DNA from: a virus
Length of the DNA stretch: 64,000 nucleotides
Reading direction: 5' to 3' (one strand)
IMG/VR virus record: IMGVR_UViG_3300050196_000085
Coordinates: 5,046-69,045 of that record
Positions 3,433 to 7,801 of the stretch are shown here, piece by piece (positions within the stretch are counted from its first letter, which is position 1; every line of letters starts with the position of its first letter). The position numbers were made by a program, and so were the translations under genes. Below the pieces are notes generated by a model. It did no database searches and had not been told where the DNA came from. It saw nothing but the letters and a program-made list of their open reading frames with translations.

Positions 3433-3912
3433 TCAATAGCCTGCTGCTAACAAGGCCACCCTCATGAGAGTGGTATTGTCGAGTGAACCGGTACGAGCTT
3501 CAGCAGCCTTTGTTTTATCACCATTGTCGGTGAAGACCTTAGCAAGCACTCTGCGAGCTTCCAGAATTTCAGGCTTCACAGCCAAGTCTGGGTGCTCTTT
3601 AATGGCGGCATCTTTCCAAGCGATTAGGTCAGCAATTTGCTCTTGGAGCTGTTTAACCTGAAGGTTCAACTTGGTTTCTGGCTTCATTTGCATCTTTGGT
3701 GGAACGATGGGTTTACCATCACCTATGTAAATCTTATGATCTTTACGCTTGAGCACACCTTTCTTGATCTGCTCAGAAATTGGTGATGTGAGTGAATTCA
3801 TCTTGATGCCGGTGAATTCACTGATTTCTCGGGGAGTTAGTCCGGGAAATTCCCGGACCGTCTCTAGTATTCTTGTGATGTTTGACATCGGCTTTGCCTC
3901 AGCTAAGGGCAT
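3433..3912 (-). CDS. Putative winged-helix DNA-binding protein
   Basis: ILETVREFPGLTPREISEFTGIKMNSLTSPISEQIKKGVL HTH pattern. Start moved to the ATG at 3912 behind a GAGGAG RBS. Confidence 0.6.
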   Translation of the reverse strand: MPLAEAKPMSNITRILETVREFPGLTPREISEFTGIKMNSLTSPISEQIKKGVLKRKDHKIYIGDGKPIVPPKMQMKPETKLNLQVKQLQEQIADLIAWKDAAIKEHPDLAVKPEILEARRVLAKVFTDNGDKTKAAEARTGSLDNTTLMRVALLAAGY

Positions 3913-5134
3913 ATTCAGTCTCCTCAATGTCCTGCCACATTTCTAGGTCCAGCTTACCGATCTGCACGGTACGGCCAATGATCTGAGAGATTAGGTAGCT
4001 CAGCAAATCACTCTTAGCGATCAGCATCAGTTGGCGTGCATATTGGATACGTAGATCGTTGGCGTAGTTTGGATGGCAACGGAAGCAGTCATGCACACTC
4101 AAGACCTTGAATGGTTTCTCAGGCAGGCTTTCCAGTAGTTCCCAGATGACAGCAGGATCGACATGTCCCAGATTATCAGCGTTCAGTGCGTTGATGATCC
4201 GAGCCGAGAGATACCCGCAGTTCTTGTAATGCTCCCAAAGGACTACAACGAGCTTATCGTCGTTGGTCTTGGTTCCGTGTCCATACACAGGCACAGGTGC
4301 CTCAACAGCAAGAAGGTCATATAGCTTGTTGACCTTCTCGGTGTTGTAGTCGCAGCGTTCACCCATTTCACGGCAGATCATGCCATCAATGGAGTGAGTA
4401 GCGTTTGCACCAAGGCTACGACCTTCTTTCATTGGTCGATTAACTTTATGGAACACCTCGAATGGCTGGTTTAGGAAGTGTACGGTTTCTTTGATGGAAT
4501 CCATGACCTTGATCTTCACATGGAAGTTGTCGGGCAATACCCAGTCGTGGCTCAAAGCTTTAGAATCCCAAAACGAAAGCATTGCTTCGTTGAGTTCCCA
4601 AGCTCCGGGTGCAGCCTCGGTCATGGTATCGTAGAACAGATCCAGCAAAGCTCCTTCACCGAACACTTGACGCGGTACAGCACGGCTGGAATACAGACTT
4701 GTCATTATGGCCTGCTTCACATCGTCACGCTTAATTTTGCTTTCTTCACCAAGCTCATCGAGCATCATGTTGTAGATGACTGTGTAGCCGTCTTGACGCT
4801 GTACCACACTGTCATCATGAAACCGGAATGGCACGACGTTGCACAGTTCAGCAGATTGACGGCAGCCGGTTAGAGCAGCCAGAAGCTGCAATCCTGAGGA
4901 TGTGGCATCCAACGAGATCATGTAGCCTGAGGGCTTGCCTGCGAGTGCATCGTTATAAGCTTTGCAGCCTGCGTAGAACATTGCAGGTTCTTTGGCCTGT
5001 GGGATCAGCTCAGCGATGTTACCATCTTTGATGCTGTCGAACCAAGCAATACGCTCATCCCAAGTGAGCTTGTCTAGCCCATACGAATTGGCGATGTCGA
5101 TCTTGAGGTACTGAATCGGAGAAAAGCGTTGCAT
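3899..5134 (-). CDS. RNA polymerase II subunit 2 (N4 gp16-like, T7-type catalytic half)
   Basis: SLDATSSGLQLL (motif A), RDDVKQAIMTSLYSS (motif B), VLSVHDCF (motif C). Confidence 0.95.
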   Translation of the reverse strand: MQRFSPIQYLKIDIANSYGLDKLTWDERIAWFDSIKDGNIAELIPQAKEPAMFYAGCKAYNDALAGKPSGYMISLDATSSGLQLLAALTGCRQSAELCNVVPFRFHDDSVVQRQDGYTVIYNMMLDELGEESKIKRDDVKQAIMTSLYSSRAVPRQVFGEGALLDLFYDTMTEAAPGAWELNEAMLSFWDSKALSHDWVLPDNFHVKIKVMDSIKETVHFLNQPFEVFHKVNRPMKEGRSLGANATHSIDGMICREMGERCDYNTEKVNKLYDLLAVEAPVPVYGHGTKTNDDKLVVVLWEHYKNCGYLSARIINALNADNLGHVDPAVIWELLESLPEKPFKVLSVHDCFRCHPNYANDLRIQYARQLMLIAKSDLLSYLISQIIGRTVQIGKLDLEMWQDIEETEYALS

Positions 5135-5635
5135 CTATTGCGTCCTTCGTTTTCTTCGGTTGTTGGCTTGCTCTTTACGAGTGGCCCATCGGCAATTACC
5201 CGGATGGTAATCACCGTCATTGTTTATTCTTTCTATGGTGAGATCTGCTTGGTATCCATTTGATTTTGCCCAACCAGCAAATGTCTCATATGTCAGCCAT
5301 TGTTGACATACTTTGATCCCACGACCACCATAGTAATCGTATTTATCGCTATTGGGATTATTGCATCTGCTCAGCATGTTACACCACGTTTTATATAAAC
5401 GTGTACCGTGCTCACCATGAGATCTAGCACGATCCCCGGTGACTTGTTTTCGAACACATCCGCAGGATGTAGTTAATCCTCTTCTAAGAGAGTTCACTAC
5501 AATATCCTGTATGTTCCCGCATGAGCAGCGTGTTGGAGCAAACCTGATAGATCTACCTGAGTAGCGTTTACTGAAAGTTGGCCCCGTTACAGTCAACTCA
5601 CCAAATTGCATTCCATTCACGTCAATTGCTTTCAT
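5135..5635 (-). CDS. Free-standing HNH homing endonuclease
   Basis: [59 protein letters not shown]; the gene is AT-rich. Confidence 0.9.
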
Positions 5636-5669
5636 CACCGACTCCTTTGTTATCGGTGTAAGCTATAAT

Positions 5670-5702
5670 TTATAGTATTGCAAGTGCGGTGAACTTTTGC
5701 AT
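5670..5702 (-). pseudogene. Orphaned original 5' end of the RNAP2 gene
   Basis: GGAG RBS, then ATG CAA AAG TTC ACC GCA CTT (G) CAA TAC TAT AAA = MQKFTAL/QYYK, against RNAP2 MQRFSPIQYLK. Confidence 0.6.
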
Positions 5703-5735
5703 GATCTCTGCTCCTAGCGTCTTGAGATTGTTGGA

Positions 5736-5948
5736 TTACCAGCTTTGGTCTGGTGCTCGATTGCCGATCACCAGCCGGTTGAGATTATCTAACGTGGCGT
5801 GGTGGTAGATCTTGAATTCCCCCTTATCAAAAAGAGGAAGAACCTGCCCAACAGGCACCTCTACCCTGATGTCTCGATACTGATTGTAGATCAGAGCCTG
5901 AGGGTCTTGTCCGTTGGTGATCAACGGAATCTGAATCTTGACGATCAT
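5736..5948 (-). CDS. Hypothetical protein (70 aa)
   Basis: ORF track; ATGA overlap with the upstream small ORF. Confidence 0.75.
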   Translation of the reverse strand: MIVKIQIPLITNGQDPQALIYNQYRDIRVEVPVGQVLPLFDKGEFKIYHHATLDNLNRLVIGNRAPDQSW

Positions 5949-6079
5949 CGGAACCTCGTTTTGTGTAGAGGACGCTGCTTGGGAGCAGCCTTGTACCGAA
6001 GGTTCTTCACCTTCGGTGGCGTGTCGTCGTAAATCCCAGATGGTGTTGTACCACCTGAAAGGAATCCTCCTCTTGGCAT
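5945..6079 (-). CDS. Small basic hypothetical protein (44 aa)
   Basis: Read by hand: MPRGGFLSGGTTPSGIYDDTPPKVKNLRYKAAPKQRPLHKTRFR; its stop overlaps the next ATG. Confidence 0.55.
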   Translation of the reverse strand: MPRGGFLSGGTTPSGIYDDTPPKVKNLRYKAAPKQRPLHKTRFR

Positions 6080-6114
6080 GTGAAAGAAGAACAGACCGAG
6101 GTATGAGTATCTGA

Positions 6115-6306
6115 TCATGGTCCTACCCTATTGGTTCTGATCTCGTATGCGAGATTGCTGATCCTTCTGCGAAGAGCATCAGCTTCACGCTTTTGATCTT
6201 CATGGACGGTTGGTGAAGAGCAAATGTCTTCCATGGCTCGACTGGCCATAGCCAGCTTGCCTTGAAGTCCATTATGTCTCCAGATGAGCATTCGTTTGAG
6301 GCTCAT
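6115..6306 (-). CDS. Hypothetical protein (63 aa)
   Basis: ORF track; GAGG RBS. Confidence 0.7.
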   Translation of the reverse strand: MSLKRMLIWRHNGLQGKLAMASRAMEDICSSPTVHEDQKREADALRRRISNLAYEIRTNRVGP

Positions 6307-6338
6307 ACCTCGATCACTTCTGGTTCTGCCAACTCAAG
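6303..6338 (-). pseudogene. Orphaned original 3' end of the RNAP1 gene
   Basis: CTT GAG TTG GCA GAA CCA GAA GTG ATC GAG GTA TGA = LELAEPEVIEV*, against the RNAP1 end IQLADEEIISME*. Confidence 0.6.
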
Positions 6339-6975
6339 AAAGTGTGTGTGGTAACCCATTTTGGCGGATATAATCATTTCGAGCATCTCTTGCTTGTTCT
6401 GGAGTATCATGAACCCCAAGATGGGTTCTGACATCATAAGAGCAAATACTTGCTGCCCAGCGTTTTCCAACAGCATATACACCTATGTATGGTGCTTTAG
6501 AGTTGATGCGCTTCTTTTTATTTGCCGCTTGGACATTTAAGTTTGCCCAATAGCAATTACTGGGTTCGTAATTGCCTGTAACATCATGACGCTCAATTGT
6601 CAGATCGTGGGAATATCCATTCTGAACTGCCCAAAAGGCAAATCCATCATAGTAAGTCCACTCTTTACAAACACTAATTCCCAGACCACCATAATATTGG
6701 TAGTCTGGTCTATTAGGTTTCGAGCACCTAGCGTGCATATTAGACCAAATTTGAAATAATCTGGTCCTACTTGCCCCGTGTATTGTGTTCACATCTCGTG
6801 CGTAACACCCACATGATAGTGTAGCCCCTCGTTTGAGGTTCTGCCAAAGTGCTGTGATAATTTTACCACAATCACATTCGCACTCTATAGCACGCTTTTC
6901 ACCTTGACGGGGCATCTCACGTAAGAGGGTTAAACGCCCTAGCTTAGTCCCAAAGGGGATAATGTCTTTTGCCAT
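6334..6975 (-). CDS. Free-standing HNH homing endonuclease with a C-terminal AP2-like DNA-binding domain
   Basis: LGRLTL..CECDCG..SCGC..TRLFQIWSNMHARC..YYGGLGISVC..LTIERHDVTGNYEPSNCYWA. AP2-like tail YIGVYAVGKRWAASI..HLGVHDTPEQARDARN. Confidence 0.9.
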   Translation of the reverse strand: MAKDIIPFGTKLGRLTLLREMPRQGEKRAIECECDCGKIITALWQNLKRGATLSCGCYARDVNTIHGASRTRLFQIWSNMHARCSKPNRPDYQYYGGLGISVCKEWTYYDGFAFWAVQNGYSHDLTIERHDVTGNYEPSNCYWANLNVQAANKKKRINSKAPYIGVYAVGKRWAASICSYDVRTHLGVHDTPEQARDARNDYIRQNGLPHTLS

Positions 6976-6979
6976 ATGC

Positions 6980-7801
6980 CTACTCCATAGAGATTATCTC
7001 TTCATCTGCAAGCTGTATCACCGCCTTGTTCCAAGGTGCTCCCTGATAGTTGACGTGGTAGCCCTGACAGTAAATTCGACCACGCTTGTCATACTTATGG
7101 GTCAGGTAAAACTGATTCCCATGTTCAGTGAGCGTGTCGATTACGTCATGGCAGGTGCGATCATACTTCTCGAAAGCACGCTTACGCTTCTCGAAGTCTT
7201 CCTTGGACTCACCCTCTTTGGGTCGGTCGAGATTACGCCAAGAGTTCTTGATCATCAGAGCAGTGTCACGATTGATCGTTAGCTTGATTTTGTTCTGCCT
7301 GTTAATGTGACCAAGGCACACATCATCGCTGTGATGATTCTTCTTGAGTATCACTGAGCCACGATTCATGACGTAGCCAGTGTCCCGGTTGGTCTTCACT
7401 TCCCTTGGTTCTATGACCATAGGCAGAGGAAACTGGAAGCGATCCAGCTCAGCTTGCACATCATCACTGATAGTGATGGCTACGACCAAACGCTCTTGGA
7501 TAGGATCCCAATGAGCAAGGTCGAGCACACACATCTTGTGAATCAGATCTGCTGCTTCCTGAGCAGTTGCAGTGTAGTTCCTTAACAGACCTACAATGAC
7601 GGTGAATTTGGCCCTTTTGTGGAGAGCCATCTGAACCAGAAAGGCGAATCCAAAGTCCAGTGGAATACCGTTGACCTCAAACAACTCAGAGAAGTTGAGT
7701 TCCTTACAGCCAGTGAATTCAGCCTTGATTCGGGGAATGAGCTGATTCTTGTTGTACAAGTTCTCAAGCTCAATCTGTTTCGTCATAAGCGCATCTTGCA
7801 T
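6980..7801 (-). CDS. RNA polymerase II subunit 1 (N4 gp15-like)
   Basis: FQFPLPMVIEP, FYLTHKYDKRGRIYCQGYHVNYQG (DxRGR motif). Confidence 0.95.
   Translation of the reverse strand: MQDALMTKQIELENLYNKNQLIPRIKAEFTGCKELNFSELFEVNGIPLDFGFAFLVQMALHKRAKFTVIVGLLRNYTATAQEAADLIHKMCVLDLAHWDPIQERLVVAITISDDVQAELDRFQFPLPMVIEPREVKTNRDTGYVMNRGSVILKKNHHSDDVCLGHINRQNKIKLTINRDTALMIKNSWRNLDRPKEGESKEDFEKRKRAFEKYDRTCHDVIDTLTEHGNQFYLTHKYDKRGRIYCQGYHVNYQGAPWNKAVIQLADEEIISME

What the first reader, a model, noticed from the sequence alone, without database searches (positions are those of the whole stretch)
5135..5715. HNH gene inserted into the 5' end of RNAP2, leaving the old RBS and first codons stranded upstream
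Seen in sequence: upstream of the HNH lies GGAG-N8-ATG CAA AAG TTC ACC GCA CTT G CAA TAC TAT AAA. With one extra base removed this reads MQKFTALQYYK, aligning to the live RNAP2 start MQRFSPIQYLK, which begins 1 nt after the HNH stop. Inference: the mobile element invaded within codons ~1-11 and brought a replacement RBS and N-terminus, destroying its target site without an intron or intein. Established: a similar terminus-replacing strategy is known for fungal mitochondrial homing endonucleases. It seems little described in phages.
Basis: partly seen in the sequence, partly recalled or inferred. Interest (0 to 1): 0.7.

Follow-up and report, generated by a model that had tools for sequence, protein, structure and literature searches.

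The report
Endonuclease cassette replaced RNAP2 gene start
A selfish endonuclease-like gene sits a few codons inside the second RNA-polymerase gene of this uncultured N4-like phage and keeps that gene working by supplying a new ribosome-binding site and first seven codons. The original gene start is left stranded upstream, and the same layout recurs in many related phages.

Summary
On the minus strand a GGAG, an 8-nt spacer and an ATG (5702-5700) open a 10-codon stub. An HNH-like gene (5635-5135) follows, and the live RNAP2 ATG (5134) directly abuts its stop codon.

An HNH-less relative (L006) has the same upstream gene, the same ribosome-binding region and the same first seven codons, about 44 of 47 nt identical. 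There they run straight into RNAP2, which places the insertion after codon 7.

- **Recoded start.** Live codons 1-7 resemble those of another HNH-bearing phage (81%). From codon 8 the gene matches L006 (100% over 21 nt).
- **The "extra G + QYYK" tail.** It aligns better as a decayed second, older start copy carried by the element (17/24 nt to L111).
- **Recurrence.** This HNH clade sits directly before RNAP2 in about 17 N4-like lineages, and about 14 of these carry such stubs. None of 15 HNH-less loci does.
- **Filled versus empty site.** L032 against Klebsiella phage KP8 shows the cassette swapping the native ribosome-binding site and codons 1-5.

Nuclease activity and the cut site are untested. 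The closest known cases are fungal mitochondrial endonuclease "gene hybrids" and the T4 MobA cassette. This scan has noted similar start-replacing cassettes on other DNA.

The parts
5736..5948 (-). 70-aa ORF that precedes RNAP2 in HNH-less relatives (native upstream neighbour)
   Evidence: Its translation is homologous to the C-terminal part of the ORF directly upstream of RNAP2 in L006. This fixes the synteny.
5703..5714 (-). Stranded native Shine-Dalgarno (GGAG, 5714-5711) plus 8-nt spacer
   Evidence: Read. Nearly identical to the ribosome-binding region in front of the live RNAP2 of L006.
5682..5702 (-). Relic 1: the native RNAP2 start codon and codons 2-7
   Evidence: 19/21 nt identical to the live starts of the HNH-less relatives L006 and L004. 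Joined to window 5113 onward it rebuilds an L006-like 5' end.
5670..5702 (-). 10-codon mini-ORF formed by the relic (ends at TAA 5672-5670)
   Evidence: Its stop lies 34 nt before the HNH start.
5664..5678 (-). Decayed second start-like copy (relic 2), part of the element's left end
   Evidence: Gap-free alignment to the intact second start copy in L111 and L112. The same element-borne copy is seen in L196, L198, L199, L029 and L030.
5642..5647 (-). Shine-Dalgarno (AAGGAG) of the HNH-like gene
   Evidence: Read. Lies 6 nt before the ATG at 5635.
5135..5635 (-). HNH-B: a 166-aa HNH-like putative homing endonuclease
   Evidence: phrog_374 'HNH endonuclease', E 3e-56. No Pfam or NCBIfam hit. Model pLDDT 86. 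Its C-terminal half resembles the HNH enzyme PacI at Z 6.3. 42% identical to HNH-A.
5143..5148 (-). Shine-Dalgarno-like GAAGGA for the live RNAP2, embedded in the last HNH codons
   Evidence: Read. In relatives the conserved C-terminal Arg-rich tail encodes AAGGAG at the same place.
5114..5134 (-). Element-borne replacement start and codons 2-7 of RNAP2 (MQRFSPI)
   Evidence: 81% nt identity to HNH-bearing L112, but 52-62% to HNH-less L004, L070 and L006.
3899..5113 (-). Resident body of RNAP2 (N4 gp16-like large subunit of RNA polymerase II), from codon 8
   Evidence: PF00940 and phrog_2051. nt 22-42 are 100% identical to L006. Its nearest relatives on the tree are the HNH-less L006 and L004.
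6334..6975 (-). HNH-A: a paralogous HNH-like gene with an AP2-like tail, directly after RNAP1 (context, a possible mirror-image event)
   Evidence: phrog_374, E 1e-54. An RNAP1-C-terminus-like stub at 6338-6303 lies in another frame.
6980..7801 (-). RNAP1 (N4 gp15-like small subunit)
   Evidence: phrog_2166, E 4e-98.

Best explanation
A free-standing, HNH-like homing-endonuclease cassette of about 568 nt (window 5681-5114) is inserted after codon 7 of the resident RNAP2 gene.

The cassette has four parts:
- a short leader that begins with an old, decayed copy of an RNAP2 start;
- its own Shine-Dalgarno sequence and the 166-aa HNH-like ORF;
- a Shine-Dalgarno sequence for RNAP2 written into the last HNH codons;
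- a substitute ATG with codons 2-7 that reads in frame into resident codon 8.

RNAP2 therefore stays intact without any splicing. The resident ribosome-binding site and codons 1-7 remain upstream as a dead or co-opted 10-codon mini-ORF.

Inferred mechanism: the enzyme breaks HNH-less RNAP2 alleles near codons 7-8 during mixed infection. The break is repaired from the cassette-bearing genome. The recipient's own first codons pair with the donor's stub, which serves as the left homology arm, and are kept. The RNAP2 body is the right arm. The filled allele is immune because the two halves of the site are separated and the left half of the live copy is recoded.

Shown: the anatomy, the insertion point, the foreign affinity of live codons 1-7, recurrence at this site, and patchy distribution. 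Inferred: nuclease activity, the position of the cut, and the repair route.
For: 1. **Insertion point.** L006 lacks the HNH. It has the homologous upstream ORF, the ribosome-binding region and codons 1-7 running straight into RNAP2.
2. **Chimeric live start.** Live nt 1-21 are 81% identical to HNH-bearing L112 and 52-62% to HNH-less L004, L070 and L006. nt 22-42 are 100% identical to L006.
3. **Site fidelity.** HNH homologues at 49-69% identity lie 0-12 nt before, or overlap, the RNAP2 start in Burkholderia phages HN01 and HN05, Vibrio phage PJN101, and in L029, L030, L032, L033, L034, L111, L112, L113, L116, L117 and L196-L199.
4. **Stubs track the HNH.** Start-like stubs occur in 0 of 15 HNH-less loci and 8 of 13 HNH-bearing loci (exact one-sided p about 4e-4). 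All 6 later HNH-bearing loci carry one too.
5. **Stubs are resident-like.** The stub of L112 matches the live start of its HNH-less sister L070 at 20/21 nt. The window's stub matches L006 and L004 at 19/21 nt.
6. **Filled versus empty site.** L032 and L007/L008 (L007 is Klebsiella phage KP8) are about 97% identical in the flanks. In L032 the cassette replaces the native Shine-Dalgarno sequence and codons 1-5.
7. **Mobility.** HNH presence needs at least 5-7 gains or losses on the RNAP2 tree. The HNH proteins are more alike than the RNAP2 proteins in 61 of 66 genome pairs.
8. **No splicing.** No intron-like RNA was found.
9. **A real sequence.** The same sequence occurs in 7 independent assemblies.
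Against: - **Nuclease not established.** There is no Pfam, NCBIfam or PDB-sequence hit. Foldseek finds nothing below E 0.001. The only structural support is Z 6.3 to PacI. At the position where the motif resembles HNH_3 (judged by eye), the usual Asp-His is Glu-Arg.
- **Thin evidence for the foreign 7 codons.** It rests on 21 nt compared with relatives that are only 68-74% identical overall.
- **Direction not fixed.** Gain versus loss is not proven for any pair.
- **Variable left junction.** It lies after codon 7 here, around codon 11 in L116 and upstream of the Shine-Dalgarno sequence in L032, and there is no stub in the Burkholderia phages. One precise cut-and-paste site is therefore not universal.
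- **Alternative for HNH conservation.** The higher conservation of the HNH could reflect a useful function rather than transfer.
Confidence: 0.8

Rival explanations
1. The HNH-like gene is an old resident accessory gene of the RNA polymerase II operon, not a mobile nuclease. The upstream stub came from a local tandem duplication of the RNAP2 5' end. HNH-less phages have simply lost the gene.
For: The gene is translationally coupled to RNAP2 in every lineage. It is better conserved than RNAP2. It lacks the canonical catalytic His and any curated HNH model. No HNH-less allele of this phage has been seen.
Against: The stubs resemble the live starts of each genome's closest HNH-less relatives, while the live codons 1-7 resemble those of other HNH-bearing phages. 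Five to seven independent precise losses would be needed. In the KP8/L032 pair the first five codons and the Shine-Dalgarno sequence are exchanged together with the gene. The wider family (phrog_374) is scattered through over 1000 unrelated phage records in many gene contexts, as homing endonuclease genes are.
Confidence: 0.08
2. The element entered around codon 11, and the stub is codons 1-11 with a single extra base that shifts the frame (the 'QYYK' reading).
For: With one base removed the stub reads like codons 8-11 of RNAP2 (10/18 nt). One other lineage (L116) does keep a stub that runs through the YLK codons.
Against: The same bases align without gaps (17/24 nt) to an intact second start-like copy in L111 and L112, at the same distance from the HNH start. 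The switch from element-like to resident-like sequence in the live gene falls at nt 21/22.
Confidence: 0.12
3. The stub is not just a scar. It is retained as a translated leader ORF that uses the strong native RNAP2 initiation region to load ribosomes for the HNH gene. It may equally be kept by the element as its left homology arm.
For: The native Shine-Dalgarno sequence and ATG are intact here and in most relatives. In 6 of 10 lineages the stub ORF runs up to or across the HNH start, and in one of these (L029) it is fused in frame to the HNH. The stub-to-HNH distance is 67-70 nt in 7 of 10. The element-borne second copy keeps its first 12 nt or so across HNH proteins that are only about 60% identical.
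Against: In this window the mini-ORF stops 34 nt before the HNH start, and the second copy is destroyed. No expression data were available. The constant spacing may simply be shared descent.
Confidence: 0.3
4. Chance resemblance or a mis-assembly produced the apparent duplicated start.
For: The repeat is short (21 nt) and the genome is a metagenomic assembly.
Against: About 44 of 47 nt match a syntenic relative. The sequence is identical in 7 independent contigs. Contigs in four further runs bridge both junctions without differences. The pattern recurs in about 14 other lineages.
Confidence: 0.01

Closest known systems
Mobile endonuclease ORFs (mORFs) that create gene hybrids in fungal mitochondria. 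Examples are Allomyces macrogynus atp6 (Paquin et al. 1994, cited in PMC3630166) and Glomus atp6, atp9, cox2 and nad3 (PMC3630166).
   Same: An endonuclease ORF sits inside a coding region near one end. It carries an in-frame substitute copy of the terminal coding segment. The native terminal segment is left behind and stays more like that of close relatives than the inserted copy is. No splicing is needed.
   Different: There the replaced end is the C-terminus, the enzymes are LAGLIDADG or GIY-YIG, and the hosts are mitochondria. Here it is the N-terminus (only 7 codons, plus the start codon and Shine-Dalgarno sequence), the protein is HNH-like, and the host is a phage. The substitute ribosome-binding site is encoded inside the endonuclease's own last codons.
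MobA element of T4-like phages: mobA with flanking extensions and the gene 60 bypass cassette (Bonocora et al. 2011, cited in bioRxiv 10.1101/2022.08.31.505936).
   Same: It is an HNH homing endonuclease cassette inserted in an essential, conserved phage gene. It carries a homologous replacement for the target segment that it displaces and supplies a new start for the downstream part.
   Different: MobA splits the topoisomerase gene mid-ORF into two polypeptides and deletes 55-75 nt of the native segment, so no stub is left. It also needs a 50-nt translational bypass. Here the gene stays whole, only the extreme 5' end is replaced, and the native copy is retained upstream.
Free-standing homing endonucleases of T4-type phages (seg and mob genes, 'intronless homing') and the IPA-HNH/T5orf172 genes of ICP1-like phages (PMC2988022, PMC10448857).
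   Same: These are free-standing nuclease genes next to essential genes. They are patchy among relatives, and flanking markers are co-converted.
   Different: They are described as sitting between genes, not inside the coding start of the target with a duplicated start left behind.
HNH genes between or inside RNAP1 and RNAP2 of N4-like phages (G7C, EE36P1, ZC08; Amgarten et al. 2017, PMC5418858).
   Same: Same locus and same phage family. The RNAP1-RNAP2 region is a known hotspot, and the RNAP2 split near residue 144 is also seen here in relatives L006, L019, L029 and L114.
   Different: That paper describes intergenic and mid-gene insertions. It does not describe replacement of the RNAP2 start or stranded start stubs.

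Membership tests
Free-standing homing endonuclease gene (intronless homing) | Encodes a site-specific DNA endonuclease that cleaves the allele lacking the gene | not testable with these tools
   No biochemical or cross data. The cut site near codons 7-8 is inferred only from junction positions.
Free-standing homing endonuclease gene (intronless homing) | Patchy presence among close relatives at one conserved site, with a phylogeny discordant with the host gene | tested here: met
   At least 5-7 gains or losses on the RNAP2 tree. HNH identity exceeds RNAP2 identity in 61 of 66 pairs. Same position in about 17 lineages. KP8 versus L032 gives an empty and a filled site.
Free-standing homing endonuclease gene (intronless homing) | The carrier genome's own target is altered, giving immunity | tested here: inconclusive
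   The site is physically split, and live codons 3-7 differ at 9 of 15 nt from the L006 start. Whether this blocks cutting is unknown.
HNH (beta-beta-alpha-metal) nuclease superfamily | Beta-beta-alpha fold with the catalytic His and Asn/His metal ligands | tested here: inconclusive
   PHROG HNH families match at E 3e-56 to 2e-19. There is no Pfam, NCBIfam or PDB-sequence match. Best fold match is PacI: Z 6.3, rmsd 3.0, 77 residues. hhalign to one HNH_3 protein is not significant. The usual Asp-His position is Glu-Arg, and an invariant His lies at residue 73.
Terminus-replacing endonuclease cassettes (fungal mORF gene hybrids) | The element carries an in-frame substitute of the terminal coding segment of its target | tested here: met
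   Live codons 1-7 group with other HNH-bearing phages, and the gene body groups with HNH-less relatives. The Shine-Dalgarno sequence lies inside the HNH tail.
Terminus-replacing endonuclease cassettes (fungal mORF gene hybrids) | The native terminal segment is left stranded and stays closer to near relatives than the substitute is | tested here: met
   The stub matches L006 and L004 at 19/21 nt. The live copy matches them at 11-13/21 nt.
Terminus-replacing endonuclease cassettes (fungal mORF gene hybrids) | C-terminal replacement by LAGLIDADG or GIY-YIG ORFs in mitochondrial genes | tested here: not met
   Here the replaced end is the N-terminus, the protein is HNH-like and the host is a phage. 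The system works like a mORF hybrid but is not a member of that group.
Group I/II intron or intein carrying a homing endonuclease | A self-splicing RNA or an in-frame protein-splicing domain that restores the host product | tested here: not met
   No Rfam match at E up to 1 in 4900-7100 apart from one chance snoRNA hit. The HNH ORF has its own start and stop, and RNAP2 has its own ATG.

The most novel reading that the evidence does not exclude
The cassette is a precise, intron-like invader of coding sequence that needs no splicing. Its nuclease cuts RNAP2 between codons 7 and 8. The copies of the RNAP2 start carried at its left end act as a built-in homology arm, and possibly as a translated leader for the nuclease. 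At each jump into a new phage lineage the recipient's own first codons are left behind. The stacked start stubs (one resident-like copy at about 68 nt and one element-borne copy at about 45 nt before the HNH start) would then be a readable fossil record of successive invasions across Schitoviridae.
Probability: 0.3. Interest if true: 0.75.

Novelty: new variant of a known kind. Interest (0 to 1): 0.58.

Why it matters
It shows how a selfish nuclease gene can settle inside an essential phage gene without an intron, an intein or a split protein. The cassette carries a tiny substitute gene start and writes the ribosome-binding site for the host gene into its own last codons.

- **A testable target.** The stranded stubs mark insertion points at single-codon resolution. 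This gives a concrete, testable prediction for the nuclease's target in the RNA polymerase II genes of N4-like phages.
- **A marker of past exchange.** The stubs offer a natural record of past genetic exchange between phage lineages.
- **An annotation pitfall.** The mini-ORFs, and HNH proteins with odd N-terminal extensions such as the one in L029, are by-products of these events and not new genes.
- **Mosaic gene ends.** The first codons of a conserved phage gene can have a different ancestry from the rest.

Tried and rejected
- **Near-identical DNA in GenBank phages:** none.
- **Exact degenerate-pattern scan for the live start in IMG/VR:** no hit.
- **Single-protein scan of IMG/VR with HNH-B:** only one distant hit. 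The alignment-based scan was needed.
- **Protein-family and structure searches for HNH-B:** Foldseek against the PDB gave nothing below E 0.001. Pfam on all 22 clade members, NCBIfam and PDB sequence profiles gave nothing meaningful. hhalign to a single HNH_3 protein was not significant.
- **Intron or structured RNA in 4900-7100:** none.
- **Sigma-70 promoter and terminator scan:** nothing convincing on the coding strand inside the cassette.
- **HNH-less allele of this same phage in four leaf-litter metagenome runs:** no contig joins across the cassette. Partial word shares were just fragmented low-coverage contigs. No RNA holder was listed.
- **Do stacked stubs always lie in frame?** That would have pointed to gain-loss-regain cycles. 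Rejected as a rule, because L198 has a 26-nt spacing. The constant 67-70 nt spacing also suggests that many double stubs share one origin.
- **Screen of 94 family members in other gene contexts for the same trick:** only one clear case, L059. Start stubs are a speciality of the RNAP2-linked clade rather than of the whole family.
It was redone with coordinates.

Full report
**What is there**

The window is part of a 73.3-kb uncultured N4-like (Schitoviridae) phage genome. Runs that hold it are labelled leaf-litter metagenomes. In this region the genes lie on the minus strand, in this order:

- RNAP1, 7801-6980 (phrog_2166);
- HNH-A, an HNH-like gene, 6975-6334;
- three small ORFs;
- a short stub;
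- HNH-B, a second HNH-like gene, 5635-5135;
- RNAP2, 5134-3899 (PF00940, phrog_2051).

A GGAG lies at 5714-5711, followed by 8 nt and an ATG at 5702-5700, which opens a 10-codon ORF (MQKFTALAIL-stop, ending at 5670). An AAGGAG follows, then the HNH-B ATG. The HNH-B stop (5137-5135) directly abuts the RNAP2 ATG. A GAAGGA that can serve RNAP2 lies inside the last HNH codons (5148-5143).

**Is the stub really an old RNAP2 start?**

Yes. GenBank phages are at most 58% identical in RNAP2. IMG/VR holds closer, HNH-less relatives: L006, L004 and L070, at 70-80% protein identity.

In L006 the homologue of the window's 70-aa ORF (5948-5736) is followed by the same intergenic sequence, the same GGAG region and the same first seven codons. 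These run straight on into RNAP2. About 44 of 47 positions are identical to the window's stub region.

The stub region is letter-identical in seven independently assembled contigs. Contigs from four more runs bridge both junctions without differences.

**Where the inserted block ends**

In an alignment of the RNAP2 genes:

| Window RNAP2 | Compared with | nt identity |
|---|---|---|
| nt 1-21 | L112 (HNH-bearing) | 81% |
| nt 1-21 | L004, L070, L006 (HNH-less) | 52-62% |
| nt 22-42 | L006 | 100% |
| nt 22-42 | L112 | 76% |

The stub (5702-5682) plus the live gene from codon 8 (5113 onward) rebuilds an L006-type 5' end. The block 5681-5114, about 568 nt, is the insert. It carries its own ATG and codons 2-7.

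Only 21 nt support the foreign ancestry of these codons, so this point is suggestive on its own. A much cleaner pair backs it up. L032 carries the cassette. The flanks are about 97% identical. In L032 the cassette replaces the native Shine-Dalgarno sequence and the first five codons with its own.

**The 'extra G + QYYK' detail**

The closest HNH relatives (68-69% identity) are L111 and L112. They show the same resident-type stub followed at once by a second, intact start-like copy, then a leader and the HNH. The window aligns to them without gaps across the whole flank.

A start-like copy about 45 nt before the HNH start is also the only stub in L029 and L030. It is the second copy in L196, L198, L199, L034 and L113. 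I therefore read it as an old stub that now travels with the element. In the window it has decayed: its start codon is lost and a stop has been created.

**Recurrence**

HNH-B homologues at 49-69% identity lie directly before RNAP2, with a gap of 0-12 nt or an overlap, in about 17 distinct lineages. RNAP2 proteins in these lineages are as little as 32% identical to the window's. They include the cultured Burkholderia phages HN01 and HN05 and Vibrio phage PJN101.

- **Stubs track the HNH.** A start-like motif within 150 nt upstream occurs in 0 of 15 HNH-less loci and 8 of 13 HNH-bearing loci (exact p about 4e-4). All six HNH-bearing loci found afterwards have one or two.
- **Stubs look like the local resident.** L112's stub matches the live start of its HNH-less sister L070 at 20/21 nt.
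- **The left junction varies.** It lies after codon 6-8 in most lineages, around codon 11 in L116 and upstream of the Shine-Dalgarno sequence in L032. The Burkholderia phages have no stub.
- **The right side is constant.** The HNH stop is tightly coupled to a substitute RNAP2 start, with AAGGAG-like bases encoded by the conserved Arg-rich tail of the HNH protein.

**Mobility**

On an RNAP2 tree the HNH needs at least 5-7 gains or losses. The window's nearest relatives, L006 and L004, lack it. HNH proteins are more similar than RNAP2 proteins in 61 of 66 genome pairs. One example is 66% against 41% for the window and L030. This pattern fits horizontal spread, although strong purifying selection could contribute.

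**What the protein is**

PHROG families annotated as HNH endonuclease match strongly. Pfam, NCBIfam and PDB sequence profiles give nothing. A confident model (pLDDT 86) has two parts. The first is a small N-terminal beta-barrel with a Cys cluster. The second is a C-terminal half whose best structural match is the HNH restriction enzyme PacI (Z 6.3), which is only moderate support.

By eye, the motif resembles the HNH_3 signature, but with Glu-Arg where Asp-His is usual. An invariant His lies at residue 73. The paralogue HNH-A (42% identical) adds an AP2-like tail. That architecture resembles the 'IPA-HNH' homing endonucleases described for ICP1-like phages (PMC10448857). Nuclease activity is therefore plausible but unproven.

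**Mechanism proposed**

The enzyme breaks HNH-less RNAP2 near codons 7-8, next to the most conserved part of the 5' end. The break is repaired from a cassette-bearing co-infecting genome.

- The recipient's left end, ending in its own codons 1-7, pairs with the donor's stub and primes copying of the leader, the HNH and the substitute start.
- The RNAP2 body provides the right arm.
- This keeps recipient-type sequence on both sides of the insert, as observed.
- When no left homology exists, the join is illegitimate and its position varies (L032, L116).

These repair steps and the cut site are inferences.

**Comparison with known systems**

- **Fungal mitochondrial mORF gene hybrids.** These do the same at C-termini (PMC3630166).
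- **T4 MobA element.** It carries a homologous replacement region for its target, but it splits the gene and needs a translational bypass (bioRxiv 10.1101/2022.08.31.505936).
- **HNH genes in the N4-like RNAP1-RNAP2 region.** They are published (PMC5418858), without mention of start replacement.

Seven literature searches found no phage description of stranded gene starts. The library is incomplete, so this is not proof of absence. This scan's own notes list at least eight similar 'cassette replaced gene start' cases on other DNA, involving rIIA, ligase, topoisomerase, terL, rmlA and others. I did not check those.

**Verdict**

The finding is real and well supported. It is a new variant of a known kind. 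The nuclease activity and the cut site remain to be tested.

Noticed in passing
window 6303-6338 (-) and 6334-6975 (-): A possible mirror-image event at the 3' end of RNAP1. HNH-A starts 4 nt after the RNAP1 stop. A short frame overlapping the HNH-A stop reads like the RNAP1 C-terminus of L004 and L006. In L070 the HNH-A-like ORF ends with a similar tail fused in frame. HNH-A-type genes directly follow RNAP1 in L070, L121 and L139 as well.
   Followed up: partly
L006:2756-4801; L019:3007-5052; L029:3044-5048; L114:2965-4910: In several relatives RNAP2 is split near residue 143/144 by another endonuclease-like ORF of 171-202 aa. phrog_20599 appears to be the family of the resulting N-terminal fragments. 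This matches the split RNAP2 reported for Pseudomonas phage ZC08 (PMC5418858).
   Followed up: partly
L059:2352-3400: A member of the same HNH family, in a 40-kb contig from the same sample series, sits after about 49 codons of an upstream copy of a 118-aa gene of unknown function. It is followed by a second full copy with a similar start (16/21 nt). This looks like another N-terminal replacement in a different target gene.
   Followed up: partly
window 5143-5165 (-) and the HNH 3' ends of L019, L029, L034, L111-L113: The nearly invariant C-terminal Arg-rich tail of the HNH clade is encoded by bases that also form the Shine-Dalgarno sequence (AAGGAG) for the downstream RNAP2. Protein tail and ribosome-binding site are thus one dual-use sequence.
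   Followed up: partly
L004:3316-3933; L006:2020-2520; L029:1154-1684; L030:1135-1674: The RNAP1-RNAP2 spacer of close relatives holds other, unrelated endonuclease-like genes: a Cys-rich 205-aa ORF, and classical HNH_3 proteins directly after RNAP1. The whole spacer is a hotspot for such genes.
   Followed up: no
L029:2501-3040 (protein P0007): Here the old RNAP2 start is fused in frame to the HNH, giving a 15-residue N-terminal extension on the annotated protein. Gene callers therefore report a longer HNH that starts at the stolen start codon.
   Followed up: no
window 3433-3927 (-): The 164-aa ORF overlapping the end of RNAP2 has weak winged-helix/MarR-like matches (Pfam E 0.0015-0.004).
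   Followed up: no
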